Positions 47,112-55,639 are shown, counted from the stretch's first letter. The stretch: DNA of 64,000 nucleotides from Naegleria gruberi (GCA_000004985.1 GG738848.1); one strand, 5' to 3'. Notes: a model not told the origin generated them from the sequence alone. Made by a program: numbers and translations.

Positions 47112-48182
47112 ATGAAAAATATTGATAGTGATTGTATGGTATTTGTTTTGGAATTTATGAGTGTGGCGGATCATGTTTATCAATTATCGAGGGTGTGTTC
47201 CGATTGGAGAATAAATTCAATCAAGTTTATTGTGAGGTATTTGGACAAGAGGTATGCAATGTTGGGAGATTTAGTGAAACAATTCGAAACTTGTTTTGGG
47301 TGTTCAGTATCGGGAAGGAAAATGAGAAAGTTTCTGATGAGATGCCATGTCAGAGACTTGGCAGAATATTTACTTGATTCATATGAAGGAGTCCACGAAA
47401 ATCAACAGTTCACCATTCTTTGGGTTAAGAGTGAAATGGAAATTCTGTGTAATTACTTGAAAATTTCTAATAGGATGAAATCAGATGGCAACCAAACTAA
47501 ATCTACTGGGTTTTTCACAAAGATTGGAAAATTATTCTCTAAAAAAACACATGACAAGGCATCTATTCAATCACCCAACAAAGAGGTAGAATCTAATATG
47601 AAACAATTTGATTATATCAATGTGGAGTCTTCTATTCAGGGAAATTTGAATGATTTAGAACGATACTATCTTGTCAATGCTATTATGGGAATTGAGTTTA
47701 TACCAGAGTATGATGAGGAGGGAAACTTGGATGAGAGTGTATTTTCGAGAGCGTGTCTTTATGGAAGCACTGATATTGTGTTGGAATTGAAAGATTGGTT
47801 CAAGATTCATTTGAATATTAGATATCCTAAACTCACAAGTGACAATTTGGAACCTAAAAGTTTGCTATCTCACTCACACCTTCTAATGATATCAGGAATA
47901 TCAATGCAGACAAACAGAAATAACTTGGAATTAATTAAGGAGCTCGACTTGAATAAGAAACTATTTAAAGATGATTCATGTAAGGTTTCCAATTACGAGC
48001 AAGTGGTTGTTGGTGTCAAGGTTAGTGATCCTCTCTTAAACTCACAACAAATGATTCAAACAGCATTTAGTTTTGATGGATTGCAATATTTCGAGTTTAA
48101 CGTCAGCAATCCACATCAAATGAGAGTATTATATTGGTATTCAATATTAATGTCATTCATTCTAAGTTTTTTAAATAGTTAA
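47112..48182 (+). CDS. Hypothetical protein with an F-box-like N-terminus
   Basis: VFVLEFMSVADHVYQLSRVCSDWRINSIKFIVRYL is F-box-like. The remainder is unassigned. Confidence 0.35.
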   Translation: MKNIDSDCMVFVLEFMSVADHVYQLSRVCSDWRINSIKFIVRYLDKRYAMLGDLVKQFETCFGCSVSGRKMRKFLMRCHVRDLAEYLLDSYEGVHENQQFTILWVKSEMEILCNYLKISNRMKSDGNQTKSTGFFTKIGKLFSKKTHDKASIQSPNKEVESNMKQFDYINVESSIQGNLNDLERYYLVNAIMGIEFIPEYDEEGNLDESVFSRACLYGSTDIVLELKDWFKIHLNIRYPKLTSDNLEPKSLLSHSHLLMISGISMQTNRNNLELIKELDLNKKLFKDDSCKVSNYEQVVVGVKVSDPLLNSQQMIQTAFSFDGLQYFEFNVSNPHQMRVLYWYSILMSFILSFLNS

Positions 48183-48348: not shown

Positions 48349-49185
48349 CTAAAAACCTTTAAAATAAAGTATTCCTATATTTTTACATACCTTAACCCTA
48401 CATTTTTTCAATTTTAAAAATTCCAGATTTGTCAATTTGCTTAAACATGTAGCTCCTGTAATGTGTAGGAATCCATTTTCTATTTCTAATCGTTTTAAAT
48501 TAATTAATTCAGAAATTGACATTAGTGCATGATCTCCAATACAATGATTTTCAATTATCAATGAAGTCAATTGTGTTATTTTTTTAAATTCTAAAAAAAT
48601 TGATTTTTTAGGATAAAATATTTCTCTGCCTGATGAATTGATAAAGCAAAGCTCCCTCAAATGGATTAATTTGCTTATTTGATCCAAATGATGGATCTCA
48701 ATATCGTGTACAATTAATTTTCTTAATTTGGGTAAAATTGCCAAATCATGTAAATCTTCCATAATGTAACTCAATTCCAATTCTTCCAAATTTATCAATT
48801 TTTGTAAAGGACTCAACGAAGAGGTAATTTTAGTAAATTTTAAATATTTCAAATTGACAAATTGTGAAATAATTTCCAAAATAAAACTACCATCACAAAT
48901 GAGATATTGTAAATTGATGAAAATTTCTACATGTTCTTGTTTTAGAAAATTGTAAATATTTCGGATGTGTAAATTGTGAGCATTCCGAAACTTTTTAAAA
49001 GCACTAGTAAAATAATTCCAAATATTTTCATCACGAATTAAACTTGTGCGAATGAGGGAAAGTTTAGTTGTGAATAAACATCGCAACCACTTTTCACAAA
49101 CCAAAGAACACACTTGAATTAGAAACTTTGGTTCATGAAATACAAAAATTTGATGAGAAATAATTTCATCCGGTAATTGTTCCAT
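48349..49185 (-). CDS. F-box-like / LRR protein
   Basis: The N-terminus LPDEIISHQIFVFHEPKFLIQVCSLVCEKWL is followed by LRR units (LEELELSYI, LRELCFINSSG, LKRLEIENGFL). Confidence 0.5.
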   Translation of the reverse strand: MEQLPDEIISHQIFVFHEPKFLIQVCSLVCEKWLRCLFTTKLSLIRTSLIRDENIWNYFTSAFKKFRNAHNLHIRNIYNFLKQEHVEIFINLQYLICDGSFILEIISQFVNLKYLKFTKITSSLSPLQKLINLEELELSYIMEDLHDLAILPKLRKLIVHDIEIHHLDQISKLIHLRELCFINSSGREIFYPKKSIFLEFKKITQLTSLIIENHCIGDHALMSISELINLKRLEIENGFLHITGATCLSKLTNLEFLKLKKCRVKVCKNIGILYFKGF

Positions 49186-49228
49186 TTTTTTTAATAAAAT
49201 TTAAAACAATTTTTTTTTCAATTTTTTA

Positions 49229-49273
49229 CATTTATAGTAAAAACAATGAGACAACAAGCTCGAAAACATTGAG
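49229..49273. repeat. Retroelement repeat B (terminal 3' copy)
   Basis: Identical 45 bp. AT-rich host-like DNA follows to the left of 49229. Confidence 0.8.
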
Positions 49274-49438
49274 TTTATTCTTCTACGCGTACACAAATTG
49301 CATACACTTTTATCCTCTTTTCATTCATTCAGCCATCCAGCCAGCTCAGTATTCATGGATATACTACTATATCATACTAAACTAACCTTAGACTGAATAA
49401 ACTCACATATTTGCAACTACTAGCAAAACAAACCAAAT

Positions 49439-49494
49439 AGATATTCCTATGAATATCTATTCGAACTTCAGTAGATATTCCATTGAATATCTAC
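49439..49494. repeat. Two adjacent perfect hairpin palindromes in the retroelement spacer
   Basis: The first is agatattc-ctat-gaatatct, with 8-bp arms. The second is gtagatattc-catt-gaatatctac, with 10-bp arms. The two share the same arm core and are separated by 12 nt. Confidence 0.7.
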
Positions 49495-49652
49495 TTAAAA
49501 AACCCTCATTGGGTATTGATCGTGACAAGGGCTATCCCGGTGTCAACATGTTAAATTATCGCCACCTTCCTGGCCGATCAAATGACACCGTCGTCTATTA
49601 AGCCAATATAATACTTACAGATATTTTCGATCTAGGGTGGGGTGGTGGGTCA

Positions 49653-49854
49653 TCTTAAGTATGTCAGTGATGGTTTCTTGAATTGTTGATTGACTCATAA
49701 TGTGTTGCAATTTTTTCAACTTGAGTTTTACTTTCCTTCAGTAAAACTCTCTATTTAACCTAAATTTTCATTGTAAAATTTAGGTTGACTACGTTACCTG
49801 GTTGTCTATTGTTTTTACAATATAAACTTACGTAAGGTGTGGACCTTACTACCA
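49653..49854. repeat. Retroelement repeat A (internal/3' copy)
   Basis: Identical to 53688..53889 by direct comparison. Confidence 0.85.
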
Positions 49855-49897
49855 TTTATAGTAAAAACAATGAGACAACAAGCTCGAAAACATTGAG
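49853..49897. repeat. Retroelement repeat B (internal copy), abutting repeat A
   Basis: catttatagtaaaaacaatgagacaacaagctcgaaaacattgag is identical to 49229..49273. It is followed by accttacta, which repeats the end of A. Confidence 0.8.
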
Positions 49898-49914
49898 ACC
49901 TTACTAGCATAAGT

Positions 49915-52900
49915 TTAGAAGCCCATCAAGTGTGAACCGTTTCTATCACCTCTAAAGTTAGCTCGAAAATATCTGTCTATAGCATCTGAATTCCAACCAC
50001 CCATGGCCTTGATGGTAGCATCAGGGATACCCATAATGGCAGCCTCCGTGGCTCCACCAATTCTCAACGAATGAGAAGAGTACTTTCCTGGATCAGCTTC
50101 GATCCATGTTGCAACCTGAGTTAAGATGTAAGAAATCTCAACTGTATTTAAAGAAAAACCACCGGTAAACAAAAACTTTCCTTTGTCTCTTGAATCAAGT
50201 AATTTTTGAAGCCATTTCATCGGACACAATTCAGAACCTGTCGCTTCGATACATGATTTTCTTCCTTTCTTATCATTCTTCACTTTTCTCACTGTTATAC
50301 TAAACCCCACCACCGGGAACTTCACAATCTTTAGATCCTCTATTAATAAACCACCCAATTCTGAACCCCTAAACATTGACCTTATACCAAAAATCATTAG
50401 GCACGTGTATAGAACATATGATTTTTCTTTAACAAACTGTCTACCAACAATTACCCATTTACAAATAAATTCTATTCTCCATGGATCTCTTTCTCTCTTT
50501 GTCGCCACTGTAGCCAGATTGCACATACCCTTTATCACCATCTGTACTCTAATGTTTACTGTAATATCCTCCCAACCAATCCTTTTACAAAAATGCTTAA
50601 TAGCATACATTGCACTTCGACAGTTATTACCAGATGGTGTTTTGATGAACATAAAGGTGAGAAATCTGACTACCATTTCACTAGTTGCTGGTGGAACCTC
50701 TTTTTGCTTAATAAGAAAGTTGATAAATCTATTCCAATAACTTTCATAGTTGTCTGTTGTGGATATTTCAATTGAACATGACATTAATGTATCTGCAATC
50801 TTACTCAAATCGTGACTCTGCAGTCTACTAATGTTGCTCTTATGGTCCAAAATCCTTTGCATGGTTCTAGGTTCCCTCCTTGGGAGGCTCTGAAATGATT
50901 TCCATCTAGATTCATAAAACGAATTTGATAACTTTCTATTATCTTCCACCACCACCTCTTTTTCCATACTGGATGAACCAATACCATAACTGCTTTGGAC
51001 TCTAGACAATGTTGTAATACTCTCCCTATTAGATTGAAAGGTACGCAGCACCAATTTACCACTGGCTCTGTCCAAAGGTGAGAGAATGAATCTGCTTTCT
51101 CTCTTCTGCTGGTCTTCTTTCTCACTGTATATGGTTTTGTCTTGAAGTTGTAATGAGAGGCGAATCTGTCCCATCCTATTGATACATCCAGCTGCTTCTC
51201 TACTAATTGAAAAGCTTCTTTGGTAATCTCCCAATCTGTTGGGTCTTTCTCTTGAATATTTCTGCTCAGATTGTCCGCTACTTGATTCTCCTCCGAAGGT
51301 AACCATTCTAACGAAAGCAAACGGATGTCGTGTTCGAAAATAATGCGCCATATTAGTTGAATCAATTGATTCATAATGGGAGACTTTGCTCTTCCCTTCA
51401 TTATACAATATAGAGCCACCTTTGAATCCGTGTAAACAATTAAATTCTTTCCTTTCAAAAGATGTGACCATTCTTTTAGGGCAAGATAGATCGCTCTCAC
51501 TTCTAATACATTGATATGTTCTTGGCATTGTTCTCCCTTCCAAAAACCTTGTAGTTTCAAATTTCTTTCTTTGTGGAAAACTCCCCATCCCAATCTCGAT
51601 GCATCTGTCCAAAAGTATTCCACTAAGCTTGGATATTGGAACACCTTTCCATTCCAATGGTCCAAGTTGTATAAAATCCATTGGAGATTGAAAATTACAT
51701 CTCGGTCTCTGATGCGAAATTCGGAATCCCAGCCTCCAATATTCACCTAGTCCACCACTAAAGAATAAATCGGATTCAACATCACCCTTGCAGGTTGGAA
51801 ACAGTCTACATAAGCAATTATAATACCAGTCATCCGAAACAGTTCTCTGGATGTTACTTTCTGATCTTGGTGATACTTGGCAAGGGCTATGGAAATACGA
51901 GTTCGAATTTTCTCTAATGTAGCTTCTGTCATAATTAATTTCCTGCTGACCAGATCTATCTTGATCCCAAGTAGTTGAAAGACTTTTAATGGAGTTAACT
52001 GACTCTTCTTCTTTTCGATAACTACACCTAATTCTGCACATACCATTGTAACGAATGTATTGTTCCTTAATGCAGATAAATAGGAACCAAAATGTAATAA
52101 ACCAACATCGTCTAAGTAATTGGATGGTGTTAAAGAATCTGATCTCAAAAAATTGATAAATACATTCATCATTTGTGTAAAAAAGTATGGAGATCCATTC
52201 CATCCAAATGGAAGGACTGTGAATTGCAAAACCTCTTCCTCTACTTGAATGGCAAAGTATGGTCTGTCCTTCCTTTTTACCTTCATCTGGTGATATCCGG
52301 ATTTCATATCGAACATAGAACCCCAAATTTGATCTGTCTTGTTCATTGGTACGTGTTCTAAAAACTTCTTCAACGTGTTGTACTTGAATTTGGGGATAGA
52401 ACAAAACCGATTGAGCGGTCTTAAATCGATAATCAGTCGGTATGATTCTTTCTTTGGGACCAGCCGATACTTGGCTATCACTTTTGGATTGTGACAAGGT
52501 TCCAAAGCTCCAATCTCTTTCAAAATACTCACTTCTCTTTTTAACCATTCTCTCTCTTCCAAAGACCATTCTTCTAAATTTACCTTTCCATAGTATGGAA
52601 CAAATTCTTCGTTTGTTTGAACTGATACACCCTCTTTCAACATATCCACTATTTCCATTGAAGCTCCTTTCTTCCTCCAGGTATCCCATTTGTTCGAAAT
52701 GGAATGAATAGCCTCTCTTCTTTCTTCTACCTCTCGGAAAAAACAAATCATCTACATACTCTGAACCCTCTCTTTTATTTCTCTTAGGGCAATCTTTGAT
52801 CAGATGGTTTGGGTCATTACAAATAAAGCATTTCTTCACTTTCTTCATACCATTAGCACTACCAAACATATTCACCTTTTCCTCTGCCTTATCTTTCTTA

Positions 52901-53754
52901 TCATAAATCTTGGCATTTGCATAGGATTTAACAAAACTTGTCTTACCCTTCTCCTTATGGTCGAACTTGAGTAGTTTTTCTGCCATCTTAAGCTTATCCA
53001 TGTTCTCACGCCATAATGGATTGCTTTCTATAAACGCCAATTTAGATGCTAATTCTGGATTGACGGCTTGAACTTGTAATTGGAAAGCTCTTGTCTCTAA
53101 GTTCGCAACCATTTTCTTCGTATCATCTATTTCTGGGAAAAGATTAGCTATCTTCATTGTAAAAGCAGAATCCTTTCTCAAATTCTCATATTCTGTAAGA
53201 AGACTAGAATTAGTTGTTGGCAATGGTGTGTAGATTGTATCTGTGTATTTTCTAACTTCAGATTCAGCTGCCAATTGTTGTAAAACACGTTCTGTTTCAG
53301 CTTTTTCCAGCTTCATCTGTGCAATCTTAGCATCGATTATTTGTTCATAAGCCTTAAATCTCTTCACATCTTCTTCTGATACCTCTTCTCTCTTTCTCTT
53401 GTTAGAGCCATCTTCAACTTCTACAACTGACTCACCATCGTCCTCTTCGTCATCATCATCGTCATCATCATCTCTTGCTTCCTTGAATGCATGTTTAATC
53501 TCATCCTTTAACTTCTCTACATCTTTACTCTTGCCACTTGTGCAAACCGTAAACTTGTCTGCACCAATAAAGTCAACAATTGCCTTTGCCAATACCTTCT
53601 TTTGGCCAGAAACTTCAATTTCCAAGGTACCTATAATCTTTTGTATCAAGGCCTTTGTTAACTTTCCAACAGCACTTTTATCATGCTTCTTAAGTATGTC
53701 AGTGATGGTTTCTTGAATTGTTGATTGACTCATAATGTGTTGCAATTTTTTCAA
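49915..53754 (-). CDS. Retroelement long ORF (1279 aa): gag (N-terminal ~335 aa) ... overprinted linker ... tyrosine recombinase (C-terminal ~300-400 aa)
   Basis: One continuous frame. The N-terminus MSQSTIQETITDILKKH has a poly-Asp tract and a CCHC knuckle. The C-terminus has the tyrosine-recombinase R..HxxR..Y motifs. The central ~600 codons overlap the RT/RNase H frame and show no domain of their own. Confidence 0.75.
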   Translation of the reverse strand: MKKLQHIMSQSTIQETITDILKKHDKSAVGKLTKALIQKIIGTLEIEVSGQKKVLAKAIVDFIGADKFTVCTSGKSKDVEKLKDEIKHAFKEARDDDDDDDDEEDDGESVVEVEDGSNKRKREEVSEEDVKRFKAYEQIIDAKIAQMKLEKAETERVLQQLAAESEVRKYTDTIYTPLPTTNSSLLTEYENLRKDSAFTMKIANLFPEIDDTKKMVANLETRAFQLQVQAVNPELASKLAFIESNPLWRENMDKLKMAEKLLKFDHKEKGKTSFVKSYANAKIYDKKDKAEEKVNMFGSANGMKKVKKCFICNDPNHLIKDCPKRNKREGSEYVDDLFFPRGRRKKRGYSFHFEQMGYLEEERSFNGNSGYVERGCISSNKRRICSILWKGKFRRMVFGRERMVKKRSEYFERDWSFGTLSQSKSDSQVSAGPKERIIPTDYRFKTAQSVLFYPQIQVQHVEEVFRTRTNEQDRSNLGFYVRYEIRISPDEGKKEGQTILCHSSRGRGFAIHSPSIWMEWISILFYTNDECIYQFFEIRFFNTIQLLRRCWFITFWFLFICIKEQYIRYNGMCRIRCSYRKEEESVNSIKSLSTTWDQDRSGQQEINYDRSYIRENSNSYFHSPCQVSPRSESNIQRTVSDDWYYNCLCRLFPTCKGDVESDLFFSGGLGEYWRLGFRISHQRPRCNFQSPMDFIQLGPLEWKGVPISKLSGILLDRCIEIGMGSFPQRKKFETTRFLEGRTMPRTYQCIRSESDLSCPKRMVTSFERKEFNCLHGFKGGSILYNEGKSKVSHYESIDSTNMAHYFRTRHPFAFVRMVTFGGESSSGQSEQKYSRERPNRLGDYQRSFSISREAAGCINRMGQIRLSLQLQDKTIYSEKEDQQKRESRFILSPLDRASGKLVLRTFQSNRESITTLSRVQSSYGIGSSSMEKEVVVEDNRKLSNSFYESRWKSFQSLPRREPRTMQRILDHKSNISRLQSHDLSKIADTLMSCSIEISTTDNYESYWNRFINFLIKQKEVPPATSEMVVRFLTFMFIKTPSGNNCRSAMYAIKHFCKRIGWEDITVNIRVQMVIKGMCNLATVATKRERDPWRIEFICKWVIVGRQFVKEKSYVLYTCLMIFGIRSMFRGSELGGLLIEDLKIVKFPVVGFSITVRKVKNDKKGRKSCIEATGSELCPMKWLQKLLDSRDKGKFLFTGGFSLNTVEISYILTQVATWIEADPGKYSSHSLRIGGATEAAIMGIPDATIKAMGGWNSDAIDRYFRANFRGDRNGSHLMGF
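50805..51746 (-). CDS. Retroelement RNase H (+ downstream domain) ORF, same frame as RT, separated from it by one TAG
   Basis: FWTDASRLGWGVF...LEVRAIYLALKEW...LIVYTDSKVALYCI are RNase H motifs. There is no ATG; it is listed with a GTG start. Confidence 0.75.
   Translation of the reverse strand: MNIGGWDSEFRIRDRDVIFNLQWILYNLDHWNGKVFQYPSLVEYFWTDASRLGWGVFHKERNLKLQGFWKGEQCQEHINVLEVRAIYLALKEWSHLLKGKNLIVYTDSKVALYCIMKGRAKSPIMNQLIQLIWRIIFEHDIRLLSLEWLPSEENQVADNLSRNIQEKDPTDWEITKEAFQLVEKQLDVSIGWDRFASHYNFKTKPYTVRKKTSRREKADSFSHLWTEPVVNWCCVPFNLIGRVLQHCLESKAVMVLVHPVWKKRWWWKIIESYQIRFMNLDGNHFRASQGGNLEPCKGFWTIRATLVDCRVTI
51747..52751 (-). CDS. Retroelement reverse transcriptase ORF, in the +1 frame relative to gag
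   Basis: LIIDLRPLNRF, KSGYHQMKV, LPFGWNGSPYFF and YLDDVGLL are RT motifs 1-5. The ORF ends with TAG at 51747..51749. Confidence 0.8.
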   Translation of the reverse strand: MICFFREVEERREAIHSISNKWDTWRKKGASMEIVDMLKEGVSVQTNEEFVPYYGKVNLEEWSLEEREWLKREVSILKEIGALEPCHNPKVIAKYRLVPKKESYRLIIDLRPLNRFCSIPKFKYNTLKKFLEHVPMNKTDQIWGSMFDMKSGYHQMKVKRKDRPYFAIQVEEEVLQFTVLPFGWNGSPYFFTQMMNVFINFLRSDSLTPSNYLDDVGLLHFGSYLSALRNNTFVTMVCAELGVVIEKKKSQLTPLKVFQLLGIKIDLVSRKLIMTEATLEKIRTRISIALAKYHQDQKVTSRELFRMTGIIIAYVDCFQPARVMLNPIYSLVVD

Positions 53755-53889
53755 CTTGAGTTTTACTTTCCTTCAGTAAAACTCTCTATTTAACCTAAAT
53801 TTTCATTGTAAAATTTAGGTTGACTACGTTACCTGGTTGTCTATTGTTTTTACAATATAAACTTACGTAAGGTGTGGACCTTACTACCA
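53688..53889. repeat. Retroelement terminal repeat A (5' copy). It contains the gag ATG.
   Basis: The 202 bp are identical to 49653..49854. The copy begins tcttaagtatgtcagtgatgg and ends ggaccttactacca. Confidence 0.85.
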
Positions 53890-53940
53890 ATTATTTAGAA
53901 TTTACAAATATAGATAATAATATACAAATAATCGGCAAGA

Positions 53941-55639
53941 TTACTTTTGAGAAACCATATTCTTTGCAATGAGGAGGGATACATTCTTTGCTGAGATTAG
54001 GTTAGTTTCCATAGTACTGACAACACTTTCAACACTATTCGTATAGTAAATATTATTGTGGAGTTTGACAGGAGGTTGAATATTATTTGGTTTGAGAATT
54101 GGATAACTTCCATGTTTCCAAACTTGTTGAACTACTGATGTGGCTCCAACAAACATTTCCTGTAATGTTTTGGTTGAAAGTGGCTCATGACTATACGATT
54201 CGAATATTCTTTCTGATTCATCAGGTGTCTTTCCAATAGGTGCAATATTATTGAGTGGTAGATATTTGGTCAAAAGTGGTTTCATTGTTGTAATATACAC
54301 ATCTGATTCAGAGCAATCAGTTCCAAAATAATTCTTGTTCAAGTCCTTTGCACGAATAATGCTAGTAATCAGAATATTCATATCACGTTTTTGTAAGGCA
54401 GATGGAGGAAGTTTGATATTTTCAAATTTGATATTTGTAAACTCGAGTGGAGTTGCAACAATTACATAATCAAATTGACCGAGTTCAGAATTGTTTCCAC
54501 TCTTGAGAGAATACTTGTTTGATGCTGGATCGAATGAAATTTCAGAAACTTCACTATTCAACTTTAAGGTCAATCGATCTTTTGGAATTGATTCAATGCA
54601 ACCAAGTGGAACTTTTGAGGTTCCTTCAAGAACATGTCTAAAATCAGAAACTGCTCCAGCTAATCCAATAATTCCTCCATAGGCACTGATTTGATCAGAG
54701 TTTTGCATATAATTGATTCTCAAAATTGGATCACAATATTCCTTGATAAAACGTTCTTGAATCCAATTATTTCTTGCATATTCATAGAAAGTCAATTTGG
54801 TCAAATCACTCATTCCAGTATCTTGACAAAAATCTTCAGTACTTTCCCATGTATAGACCTTACTCAATGTTTCTGCATTTAATGGACCAGTCGATGGCAA
54901 TTCTTGGAGTTTGTAAATATTTAAAAATCTCTCCTTTGACAAGTAGTAATTAACACTTCTCTTCAATAAGAAGAGAGGAATACCAAAATCATATCTCCAT
55001 GCTCCTCTAATTGCAGTCTTCCACCAACTGTCAGATTCACAAAATACCATTCTCTTTTCGTCACCATTAAATATACCAATTCTGACATTAAAATGAGGTT
55101 CTTCCAATGTCAAATTAAACTTTTCAATCAAGCCCAAAATGTACTTGTTTTCCAAAATGACAGATGATCCACCCACTTCATATGAATACTTTGAATTTTG
55201 TCAATTAATTTTGATTCTGAAACATTAATTATAATAAACAAACCTTGTATGGATCCTTCTCATCCTGATACAAGACCATTTCCTTCAAACGACCTCCAAC
55301 TCGATCATCCCTCTCATAAACCACCAATTCAATTTCTCTCTTCATTTCTTGAGAATTGGAATTTGGCTCTGGTGAAGAAGAAGAGGAATCATTTTCTCTT
55401 CTATTCATCTCATCAACCAATTCGGAGAGAAAGTAGGCAGAGCCAGAACCAGAAATTCCACTGCCAATAATTGCAACTCTCTTATTGATCATTGAATTAT
55501 TAGCAACCTTTGGTGTTTCAGCTTGAATGGTTGTTGTAGGAAGGATCATGGAGTTTTTAGTGTGAGAAAAGTAGTTAGATCCGATCAAGCCAACTGAACC
55601 AACAGACAAAGTGGCAGCAACTAGACGTTTTAAAGACAT
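53941..55639 (-). CDS. Prenylcysteine oxidase (PCYOX1-like FAD flavoprotein), 2 exons, with a signal peptide
   Basis: Exons are about 55229..55639 and 53941..55187, with a phase-0 junction ...DEKDPYK|YSYEVGGSSVIL. Collinear with PCYOX1. The FAD motif is VAIIGSGISGSGSAYFL, followed by ELVVYERDDRVGGRL. Further matches are YEVGGS, DPILRINYMQNSDQISAYGGIIGLAGA and YVIVATPLEF. Confidence 0.8.

What the first reader, a model, noticed from the sequence alone, without database searches (positions are those of the whole stretch)
49915..53754. A single 3.84-kb open reading frame runs from gag into the tyrosine recombinase, overprinting RT/RNase H in another frame
The gag frame stays open for 1279 codons and ends in a bona fide recombinase catalytic domain. 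Its central ~600 codons overlap the RT and RNase H ORFs, which are in the +1 frame, and have no domain of their own. A stop-free alternate frame of about 1.9 kb across a coding region is extremely unlikely by chance, so the overlap looks selected. The element may express a gag-recombinase fusion as its zero-frame product and reach RT/RNase H by +1 frameshifting near the CCHC knuckle (52750-52800). That differs from the separate overlapping ORFs described for DIRS-1.
Basis: seen in the sequence. Interest (0 to 1): 0.75.

Follow-up and report, generated by a model that had tools for sequence, protein, structure and literature searches.

The report
Naegleria retrotransposon with gag-to-recombinase reading frame
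A tyrosine-recombinase (DIRS-type) retrotransposon of the amoeba Naegleria gruberi keeps one reading frame open from its gag gene, across the whole polymerase gene, into its recombinase; this is a conserved, selected variant of an overlap already known in this class, and it points to a testable +1 ribosomal frameshift site.

Summary
On the minus strand, one frame is stop-free from 53772 to 49918 (ATG 53733, stop 49917-49915). It carries gag with a CCHC knuckle, about 645 codons overprinting pol, and a Cre-like tyrosine recombinase (YR). Pol lies in the +1 frame.

The open bridge is not chance. It has 0 stops against 39 ± 4 expected under synonymous-codon shuffling.

The architecture is conserved. 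Three 99.9%-identical N. lovaniensis copies have it, with pol only 44% identical to the window. So do two further split-direct-repeat families.

The bridge's amino-acid sequence is unconstrained. Its identity equals what pol conservation alone predicts, so it looks like a translated spacer, not a domain.

Each long ORF has an in-phase UUU_UUU_C exactly where pol opens. In two families that site lies inside RT, and dual coding starts only there. This argues for programmed +1 frameshifting, with gag–spacer–YR as the default product.

A long pol/YR overlap is already described for DIRS1-like elements. I did not find three things in the accessible literature:
- the missing stop after gag;
- selection for openness alone;
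- the shared slip motif.

This copy also has a TAG nonsense codon in pol. Verdict: a new variant of a known kind, of moderate interest.

The parts
49229..53894 (-). Whole retrotransposon, about 4.66 kb, inserted between two minus-strand host genes of Naegleria gruberi
   Evidence: The repeat structure bounds it. The organism is identified by exact matches to XP_002682075.1 and XP_002681926.1. The flanking genes are a prenylcysteine lyase and an F-box/LRR protein.
53688..53889 (-). Split direct repeat A1: 5' terminus, containing the gag ATG and its first 15 codons
   Evidence: It is 100% identical over 202 nt to A2 at 49653-49854.
49653..49854 (-). Split direct repeat A2
49853..49897 (-). Split direct repeat B1, abutting A2 (an internal copy of the circle junction)
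   Evidence: It is 100% identical over 45 nt to B2 at 49229-49273.
49229..49273 (-). Split direct repeat B2, the 3' terminus
49274..49652 (-). Unique non-coding region between A2 and B2, with two tandem 22-nt palindromes at 49438-49459 and 49472-49493
49915..53733 (-). Zero-frame ORF from ATG to TAA, 1272 codons: gag, then the bridge, then the tyrosine recombinase
52783..52836 (-). CCHC zinc knuckle at the end of gag
   Evidence: Pfam zf-CCHC.
52737..52743 (-). Candidate +1 frameshift heptamer TTT_TTT_C, followed by the rare Pro codon CCG. It is the only in-phase occurrence in the ORF and lies 8 nt after the pol frame opens.
   Evidence: The same motif is at the frame switch in N. lovaniensis L056:5036 and in L060:3554.
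50805..52751 (-). Pol frame, +1 relative to gag/YR: RT (RVT_1, about 52460-51957), RNase H (about 51608-51261) and a conserved C-terminal region
51747..51749 (-). In-frame TAG interrupting pol between RT and RNase H. It is a copy-specific nonsense codon.
   Evidence: The aligned residue is Met in L001 and N. lovaniensis and Leu in L002.
50808..52736 (-). Bridge: about 643 zero-frame codons overprinting pol, stop-free but with no amino-acid constraint
49918..50868 (-). Tyrosine recombinase with a core-binding and a catalytic domain. All but its first ~20 codons (which overlap the pol C-terminus, stop 50805-50807) lie 3' of pol.

Best explanation
This is a young copy of a DIRS-order (tyrosine-recombinase) retrotransposon of Naegleria gruberi. 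Its termini are split direct repeats (A1-ORFs-B1A2-X-B2).

Proposed expression. Translation starts at the gag AUG (53733). Ribosomes that stay in frame read gag, then about 640 codons that overprint pol, then the recombinase. The overprinting codons are kept free of stops but are otherwise unconstrained. The default product is therefore Gag-spacer-YR. A fraction of ribosomes slip +1 at UUU_UUU_C (52743-52737). There the P-site tRNA-Phe moves from UUU to UUC, next to the rare CCG codon. Those ribosomes make Gag-Pol (RT-RNase H-C-terminal domain).

What the design achieves. The overlap exists because the recombinase has no initiation site of its own. It can be reached only by ribosomes coming from upstream, so every stop in that frame across pol is removed by selection.

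Shown:
- the frame structure;
- its conservation;
- frame-specific stop avoidance;
- the lack of amino-acid constraint on the bridge;
- the conserved heptamer at the switch;
- an intact YR.

Inferred:
- that the fusion protein is actually made;
- that the heptamer is the shift site;
- the ratio of the two products;
- any later cleavage.

This particular copy carries a TAG in pol, so it probably depends on RT supplied in trans.
For: Architecture in the window.

Stop avoidance. The window has 0 stops against 39.2 ± 4.2 expected, and 0 of 192 T-ending codons before AA/AG/GA. The same holds in relatives:
- L001: 0 against 30.6
- L002: 0 against 24.7
- L005: 0 against 13.9
- N. lovaniensis: 0 against 40.7
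- L059: 0 against 25.5
- L060: 0 against 27.4
It is absent from the window's own gag (42 against 43) and its YR (27 against 31). It is also absent from DIRS-like loci without the overlap, L007 and L008.

Conservation. N. lovaniensis L056, L057 and L058 are three copies in different genomic sites, 99.85-99.92% identical to each other. Each has split direct repeats and an uninterrupted 676-codon pol in +1; L056 and L057 keep a 1332-codon open gag-to-YR frame, which in L058 is cut to 1235 codons by one nonsense change in YR. Pol is only 44% identical to the window, and four-fold sites are near saturation. Openness must therefore be maintained by selection in each lineage.

Frameshift.
- In L059 and L060/L061 the N-terminal part of pol is in the gag frame and the rest is in +1.
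- Stop avoidance in the pol-1 frame begins only at the switch. Upstream the counts are 10 against 12.2 and 13 against 16.9; downstream they are 0 against 25.5 and 0 against 27.4.
- The split is therefore old, and a complete RT needs recoding.
- The switch sequences are GAT TTG TTT TTT CCG AGA (N. gruberi), CTT CAG TTT TTT CCA AGA TAC TC (N. lovaniensis) and CTT CAG TTT TTT CGA GGA TAC TC (L060).
- This is the only in-phase TTT_TTT_C in the two Naegleria ORFs.
- CCG makes up 3% of Pro codons in host ORFs of the window.
- L001 has no Met at the start of its pol frame.
- The ATG just upstream of the YR domain is not conserved.
- Conservation passes from the gag frame to the pol frame at the T-run.

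Spacer. Bridge amino-acid identity equals the null derived from pol conservation: 0.326 against 0.313, 0.302 against 0.286 and 0.258 against 0.230. Third positions of pol codons evolve as in the non-overlapping YR.
Against: - There are no expression data of any kind: no peptides, ribosome footprints or transcripts.
- A 145-kDa protein with about 640 residues of unselected sequence as the main product is odd. It would leave no free Gag unless host proteases cut it.
- The zero-frame codon after the run is rare only in N. gruberi (CCG). It is CCA in N. lovaniensis, and CCA is the commonest Pro codon in the window's host ORFs.
- No significant RNA structure follows the site (z = -0.2, -1.6 and +0.2), and Rfam finds nothing.
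- L059 lacks the T6 run, and L001 has it degraded.
- Both Naegleria elements have an ATG within three codons of the start of the pol frame. Internal initiation on another RNA is therefore not excluded for them.
- Synonymous sites are nearly saturated in all available comparisons, so weak constraint on the bridge protein could be missed.
Confidence: 0.6

Rival explanations
1. YR and/or pol are expressed from separate RNAs (spliced, subgenomic or internally initiated). The bridge is kept open for an RNA-level reason. For example, non-shifting ribosomes must not terminate 3 kb upstream of the 3' end, which would expose the genomic RNA to nonsense-mediated decay. On this view the fusion protein is a by-product, not the functional form of YR.
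For: The bridge has no amino-acid constraint, as expected if only ribosome transit matters. ATG codons lie at the start of the pol frame in both Naegleria elements. An ATG with A at -3 precedes the YR domain in the window.
Against: Those ATGs are not conserved in L001, L005 or P0045. In L059 and L060 the N-terminal part of RT lies in the gag frame, so separate initiation cannot give a complete pol. There is no evidence of introns. The only 'introns' are in frame-hopping gene models.
Confidence: 0.2
2. The shift into pol happens during RNA synthesis, not translation. Polymerase slippage on the T6/U6 run deletes one U in a fraction of transcripts, putting pol in frame with gag. This would be analogous to slippage on homopolymer runs in potyviruses and paramyxoviruses.
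For: A homopolymeric T6 run sits at the switch in N. gruberi, N. lovaniensis and L060. No stimulatory RNA structure is detectable.
Against: L059 has no T6 run at its switch. It has only GGG_CGG and GGT_TTT_CAG. The run is always in phase as UUU_UUU_C, which matters for tRNA re-pairing but not for polymerase slippage. By my own recollection, six residues is short for efficient transcriptional slippage.
Confidence: 0.1
3. The continuous gag-to-YR frame is an accident of a decayed copy. An indel near the gag/pol boundary fused two formerly separate ORFs, and it goes unnoticed because the bridge frame is open anyway.
For: This copy is already damaged by the TAG in pol. Relatives L001 and L002/3 do carry frame-changing indels that leave long ORFs. 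Piednoel et al. noted many frameshifts in N. gruberi copies (PMC3266345).
Against: The same continuity is found in three near-identical N. lovaniensis copies with intact pol, and in L059, L060 and L061. In L001 the gag frame also runs on without a stop. Its two deletions (7 nt and 1 nt) break pol continuity and truncate the pol C-terminus, so L001 is the derived state. The terminal repeats of the window copy are 100% identical.
Confidence: 0.03
4. The bridge encodes a functional overprinted protein domain that the search tools cannot recognise.
For: It is long, conserved as an open frame, and aligns at 26-33% identity between relatives.
Against: That identity equals the expectation from pol conservation alone (z = 0.9, 0.9 and 2.2). 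Its first codon positions evolve like synonymous sites. Pfam finds no domain. In L059 and L060 the bridge is 80-130 codons shorter at its N-terminus, because the switch site has moved.
Confidence: 0.05

Closest known systems
DIRS-1 of Dictyostelium discoideum and DIRS1-like elements with a 'long ORF overlap'
   Same: They share gag, an RT/RNase H pol and a tyrosine recombinase, with no protease or DDE integrase. The YR ORF extends far upstream and overprints pol, and the catalytic domain lies in the non-overlapping 3' end (PMC3266345, PMC5006619, PMC6681497). In the long-overlap loci I examined, the overprinting frame is always pol-1 and shows the same stop avoidance.
   Different: [quoted passage not shown] This element has split direct repeats. 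DIRS-1 is described as three overlapping ORFs. Here no stop separates gag from the YR ORF. In the distant DIRS1-like loci L011, L014 and L015, gag and the bridge/YR ORF share a frame but are separated by one TAG. I could not read Cappello 1985 or Poulter & Goodwin 2001/2005 to see whether the gag/YR frame relation is discussed there.
PAT-like and Ngaro-like YR retrotransposons (split-direct-repeat termini)
   Same: They share the A1-internal-B1-A2-B2 repeat organisation (PMC3266345, PMC3783388). This is seen here, in N. lovaniensis and in L059.
   Different: A unique stretch of 380-500 nt lies between A2 and B2. Ngaro elements are described as usually lacking ORF overlaps and the MT domain. 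Piednoel et al. assigned the N. gruberi elements to DIRS1-like by similarity, not to PAT (PMC3266345).
Programmed +1 frameshifting at UUU_C with a slow A-site codon (influenza A PA-X, UCC_UUU_CGU) and Ty1 (CUU_AGG_C). Both are recalled from my own knowledge and were not checked in the library.
   Same: The P-site tRNA can re-pair one base 3' (UUU to UUC). The next zero-frame codon is rare in N. gruberi (CCG, 3% of Pro codons), and is CGA in L060. No downstream structure is needed.
   Different: This has not been tested experimentally here. The A-site codon is the common CCA in N. lovaniensis.
Gammaretrovirus-type gag stop readthrough (MLV, UAG GGA GG...). Recalled from my own knowledge.
   Same: In the distant relatives L011, L014 and L015 the gag TAG is followed in frame by GGA GAC G and by the bridge/YR ORF. 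This suggests Gag-YR by readthrough, which would be the regulated counterpart of the Naegleria fusion.
   Different: The Naegleria elements have no stop at all, so the fusion would be constitutive.

Membership tests
DIRS order (tyrosine-recombinase retrotransposons) | Reverse transcriptase and RNase H related to the Ty3/gypsy type | tested here: met
   RVT_1 E 4.8e-18; RNase H families E 3e-5 to 7e-4. The pol homologues found are DIRS-like.
DIRS order (tyrosine-recombinase retrotransposons) | A tyrosine recombinase in place of a DDE integrase, and no aspartic protease | tested here: met
   Phage_integrase scores 28.1 bits against a cut-off of 27.1. The profile matches Cre at E 6e-15. R, K, HxxR, W and Y are conserved. 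Pfam finds no integrase or protease in any frame product.
DIRS order (tyrosine-recombinase retrotransposons) | A gag-like first ORF | tested here: met
   The N-terminal 340 aa end in a CCHC knuckle. They are homologous to the gag of L001 and N. lovaniensis.
DIRS1-like superfamily | Inverted terminal repeats plus an internal complementary region | tested here: not met
   The termini are direct split repeats: A at 202 nt and B at 45 nt. No terminal inverted repeats were found.
DIRS1-like superfamily | A long overlap of the YR ORF with pol, present in about half of members | tested here: met
   A 1947-nt overlap.
DIRS1-like / PAT superfamilies | A methyltransferase-like domain at the C-terminus of pol | tested here: inconclusive
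   Pfam gives no hit even at E ≤ 10 for the last 146 aa of pol. The region is nevertheless strongly conserved, at 67% identity to L002. A more distant pol homologue, P0030, carries PF05869.
PAT-like / Ngaro-like (split-direct-repeat elements) | The A1-ORFs-B1-A2-B2 terminal organisation | tested here: met
   The same organisation is in N. lovaniensis and L059. A unique X segment lies between A2 and B2.
PAT-like / Ngaro-like (split-direct-repeat elements) | Phylogenetic placement of RT/RNase H with PAT or Ngaro reference elements | not tested
Piednoel et al. placed the N. gruberi copies nearer DIRS1-like by TBLASTX (PMC3266345).
Programmed +1 ribosomal frameshift sites | A P-site codon that allows +1 re-pairing, next to a slowly decoded zero-frame codon, at the start of the ORF overlap and conserved among relatives | tested here: inconclusive
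   UUU_UUU_C is in phase, unique in the ORF and at the switch in three families. CCG is rare in the host, but the codon is CCA in N. lovaniensis.

The most novel reading that the evidence does not exclude
Split-direct-repeat YR retrotransposons of Naegleria and related protists use one mRNA and one start codon to make two alternative Gag fusions. Gag-Pol is made by a portable +1 frameshift cassette (CUUCAG_UUU_UUU_C). That cassette has moved along pol during evolution, from the gag/pol border to inside RT. Gag-spacer-recombinase is made by default. The spacer would be a 500-650-codon overprinted frame that selection keeps open but does not otherwise constrain. As far as I know, that would make it one of the longest overlapping frames maintained purely for ribosome passage. 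The gag-UAG-bridge/YR arrangement of other DIRS1-like elements would be the readthrough-regulated version of the same strategy. This could explain the long-unexplained pol/YR overlap of DIRS-1 itself.
Probability: 0.45. Interest if true: 0.7.

Novelty: new variant of a known kind. Interest (0 to 1): 0.55.

Why it matters
Papers on DIRS elements describe the long pol/YR overlap, but none that I could read gives it an established function. One paper only speculates about a +1 frameshift (PMC5006619).

The Naegleria elements offer a clean natural case:
- The frame relation is unambiguous.
- The overlap is demonstrably selected for openness alone.
- A short conserved motif marks the switch.
- N. 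lovaniensis carries several near-identical, apparently intact copies.

This turns 'how is the DIRS recombinase translated' into direct experiments, using reporters, proteomics and ribosome profiling. It also adds a probable eukaryotic +1 frameshift signal.

There is a practical point as well. Such dual-open frames mislead gene prediction. NAEGRDRAFT_45916 and three N. lovaniensis models are frame-hopping chimeras. The same property hides frameshift mutations in dead copies.

Tried and rejected
- A homologue search with the whole 1279-aa ORF found nothing. Its candidate list was probably swamped by low-complexity words. Searches with pol and with YR alone worked.
- An exact look-up of the N. 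gruberi gene model gave no DNA, so other N. gruberi copies could not be examined.
- The metagenome scan returned only distant DIRS-like loci at 24-30% identity. They served as controls, not as close relatives.
- I first read L001 (gag in frame with RT) and L002/3 as evidence against gag-YR continuity. I rejected that reading. L001 differs by a 7-nt and a 1-nt deletion that break pol continuity. L002/3 and L004 are 5'-truncated copies beside kinase-like host genes.
- I looked for synonymous-site constraint from the bridge frame and found none.
- I looked for RNA structure 3' of the T-run. Folding z-scores are not significant and Rfam gives no hit.
- Pfam did not detect the MT domain.
- A single-sequence PDB search with YR found nothing. 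The profile search matched Cre.
- Poulter & Goodwin 2005 and Goodwin & Poulter 2001 are not in the library. I could not check whether the gag/YR frame relation has been discussed before.
- There are no tRNA genes in the window.

Full report
**1. What is there**

The window comes from Naegleria gruberi. The first 480 residues of the long ORF, counted from its ATG, are the N-terminus of gene model XP_002682075.1 (NAEGRDRAFT_45916). The neighbouring ORF 47112-48182 is XP_002681926.1. Both lie on a 712,659-bp scaffold.

On the minus strand one frame has no stop from 53772 to 49918. The ORF listing reports it as 53754..49915, 1279 aa. The first ATG is at 53733. The frame holds three parts:
- A gag-like region ending in a CCHC knuckle (aa 307-324, 52836-52783).
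- About 640 codons with no recognisable domain.
- A tyrosine recombinase.

The recombinase is sound. It passes Pfam's gathering cut-off when scanned alone. Its family profile matches Cre over both domains (E 6e-15). The R, K, HxxR, W and Y catalytic residues are conserved.

Pol is in the +1 frame at 52751-50805. It contains RT and RNase H and a conserved C-terminal region that Pfam does not name. The 'two ORFs' of the finding are one pol gene, cut by an in-frame TAG at 51749-51747. Relatives have Met or Leu at that position.

The element spans 53889-49229. Its ends are split direct repeats, not inverted repeats. A1 (53889-53688) equals A2 (49854-49653). B1 (49897-49853) equals B2 (49273-49229). 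Both pairs are 100% identical, and a unique 379-nt stretch lies between A2 and B2. The element sits in a short gap between a prenylcysteine lyase gene and an F-box/LRR gene.

**2. Is the open bridge more than chance?**

Yes. With the pol protein and its codon usage held fixed, shuffling synonymous codons gives 39.2 ± 4.2 stops in the bridge frame. The minimum in 20,000 shuffles is 22, and the observed number is 0. The third frame has 75 stops against about 65 expected.

The mechanism is visible in the sequence. A bridge-frame stop needs a pol codon ending in T followed by a codon starting AA, AG or GA. None of the 192 such preceding codons ends in T, although 26% of all third positions are T. 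The window's own gag and YR regions show no avoidance (42 against 43 and 27 against 31).

**3. Comparative evidence**

*Close metagenomic relatives.* Pol is 58-60% identical in L001, L002/L003 and L005, and all show the same zero-stop frame.

*N. lovaniensis.* This was the decisive material, reached through a representative-library hit. L056, L057 and L058 are three full-length copies in different genomic contexts, 99.85-99.92% identical to each other. Each has:
- Split direct repeats (A 182 nt, B 44 nt).
- A 676-codon pol in +1 with no internal stop.

L056 and L057 also keep a 1332-codon open frame running gag(CCHC)-bridge-YR. In L058 one G>A nonsense change in YR shortens it to 1235 codons.

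Their pol is only 44% identical to the window's, and four-fold sites are close to saturation. Yet the bridge has 0 stops against 40.7 ± 4.3 expected. The continuous gag-to-YR frame is therefore the native, selected state of an active family.

*L001.* It seemed at first to contradict this. It differs by a 7-nt deletion that disconnects the pol N-terminus from RT. It also has a 1-nt deletion that truncates the pol C-terminus, which the window shares with L002. It is a damaged copy.

*L002/3 and L004.* These are 5'-truncated copies.

**4. What the bridge is**

If the bridge encoded a functional protein, pol's synonymous sites should be constrained. They are not.

| Comparison | Nucleotide identity at codon positions 1 / 2 / 3 | Four-fold site identity |
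|---|---|---|
| Window vs L001, pol (overlapping) | 0.69 / 0.77 / 0.42 | 0.35 |
| Window vs L001, YR (non-overlapping) | 0.62 / 0.78 / 0.39 | 0.31 |
| Window vs N. lovaniensis, pol | – | 0.33 |
| Window vs N. lovaniensis, YR | – | 0.33 |

I also redrew synonymous codons with both pol proteins fixed and stops forbidden. The observed bridge identity matches that null:

| Comparison | Observed bridge identity | Null |
|---|---|---|
| Window vs L001 | 0.326 | 0.313 |
| Window vs L002 | 0.302 | 0.286 |
| Window vs N. lovaniensis | 0.258 | 0.230 |

The only detectable selection on the bridge is the absence of stops. It behaves as a spacer that ribosomes must cross. The caveat is that all comparisons are near saturation, so weak constraint could be missed.

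**5. How pol is reached**

In both Naegleria species the pol frame opens just after the knuckle. Each ORF has exactly one in-phase TTT_TTT_C, and it lies at that point:
- N. gruberi: GAT TTG TTT TTT CCG AGA at 52743.
- N. lovaniensis: CTT CAG TTT TTT CCA AGA TAC TC at L056:5036.

Upstream of the run the gag frame is the conserved one. Downstream the pol frame is (...AIHSISNKW...).

Two further split-direct-repeat families add an independent argument. These are L059 and L060/L061, from assemblies GCA_006365135.1 and GCA_006365035.1. Each again has one ORF from gag to YR (1353 and 1343 codons). Here, though, the N-terminal 170-220 residues of pol lie in the gag frame and only the rest is in +1.

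| Locus | pol-1 frame stops upstream of the switch (observed / null) | Downstream (observed / null) |
|---|---|---|
| L059 | 10 / 12.2 | 0 / 25.5 |
| L060 | 13 / 16.9 | 0 / 27.4 |

The split is therefore ancient, and a complete RT requires recoding.

At the L060 switch the sequence is CTT CAG TTT TTT CGA GGA TAC TC. It matches N. lovaniensis at 21 of 23 positions, although the site lies elsewhere in pol. L059 has GGG_CGG and GGT_TTT_CAG instead.

A P-site tRNA-Phe slipping from UUU to UUC next to a slowly decoded codon would give the +1 shift. CCG is 3% of Pro codons in host ORFs of this window. L060 has CGA, and L059 has CGG. From my own knowledge this resembles influenza PA-X (UCC_UUU_CGU) and Ty1.

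Weak points:
- N. lovaniensis has the common CCA codon.
- There is no downstream structure and no Rfam match.
- Transcriptional slippage on the U6 run remains an alternative.

**6. Relation to what is known**

Extensive overlap of the YR and pol ORFs is a described feature of DIRS-1 and of about half of characterised DIRS1-like elements. In those elements the catalytic domain lies in the non-overlapping 3' end (PMC3266345, PMC6681497). A +1 frameshift has been suggested for DIRS-1 but not tested (PMC5006619, Fig. 1 legend). N. gruberi was listed with 7 copies in 6 families. Those copies were left uncharacterised because of 'too many frameshifts' (PMC3266345).

The representative search shows many predicted proteins of 870-1350 aa that end in a YR, which is consistent with this.

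Relative to the accessible literature, three things appear new:
- There is no stop between gag and the YR ORF, and this is conserved across families.
- The bridge is selected only for openness.
- A motif is shared at the frame switch.

In the distant DIRS1-like loci L011, L014 and L015, gag and the bridge/YR ORF share a frame and are separated by a single TAG, in the context AGA TAG GGA GAC G. Pol is in +1. This suggests that a Gag-YR product, made there by readthrough, may be general.

I could not read Cappello 1985 or Poulter & Goodwin 2001/2005, so the novelty claim is limited to what the library holds.

**7. Verdict**

The claimed contrast with DIRS-1 is overstated, and the predicted dual-frame constraint is absent. 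This copy is pol-defective.

I classify it as a new variant of a known kind, with interest 0.55.

Noticed in passing
window 51747-51749 (minus strand): An in-frame TAG splits pol between RT and RNase H. Relatives have Met or Leu at this position. This N. gruberi copy is therefore probably non-autonomous, even though its terminal repeats are 100% identical.
   Followed up: yes
window 49438-49459 and 49472-49493: Two tandem 22-nt palindromes (TAGATATTC..GAATATCTA) lie in the unique region between repeats A2 and B2. Each has 8-9-bp inverted arms around a 4-6-bp centre. They could be recombinase core sites or hairpins used in replication.
   Followed up: no
window 53787-53826 and 49752-49791: Each A repeat contains a palindrome of about 30 nt, AACCTAAATTTTACAATGAAAATTTAGGTT, upstream of the gag ATG.
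   Followed up: no
window 49915-53733; L056 4001-7903; L057; L058: Public gene models over these elements are frame-hopping chimeras built with predicted introns. They are NAEGRDRAFT_45916 in N. gruberi and C9374_002847, _004722 and _010711 in N. lovaniensis. The N. gruberi model joins gag plus part of the bridge to the last 80 aa of YR.
   Followed up: yes
L011 827, L014 4722, L015 1821: In distant DIRS1-like metagenomic loci, gag ends in a TAG that is followed in the same frame by the bridge/YR ORF. The conserved context is AGA TAG GGA GAC G, which resembles the MLV readthrough site. L015 also has an in-phase GTC TTT CGC C in the gag/pol overlap at 1707.
   Followed up: partly
L006/L010 813, L007 3063, L009 943: In DIRS-like loci without the overlap, gag and pol share a frame and are separated by one TGA. 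In L009 the context is TGA CTA G, a known readthrough-favouring context.
   Followed up: no
L002 2-1705, L003 3-1571, L004 688-1908: The 5'-truncated relatives of the element sit directly downstream of protein-kinase-like ORFs in the same orientation. There are two independent cases. The kinases share only generic kinase similarity, so this may be coincidence or a target preference.
   Followed up: partly
window 52774-52779; L056 about 4990; L001 about 780: An AATAAA hexamer just 3' of the CCHC knuckle is conserved in all three elements. It may simply encode Asn-Lys, or it could be a premature polyadenylation signal giving a gag-only RNA.
   Followed up: no
window 49185-49229 and 53889-53941: The element lies in a gap of about 140 nt between two minus-strand host genes. 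Its 3' end is 44 nt from the start codon of the F-box/LRR gene. There is no obvious target-site duplication, as expected for recombinase-mediated insertion.
   Followed up: partly
L056 8203-8305 and 8337-8441: The N. lovaniensis element has a 105-nt tandem duplication (92% identity) in its region between A2 and B2. The N. gruberi copy lacks it.
   Followed up: no
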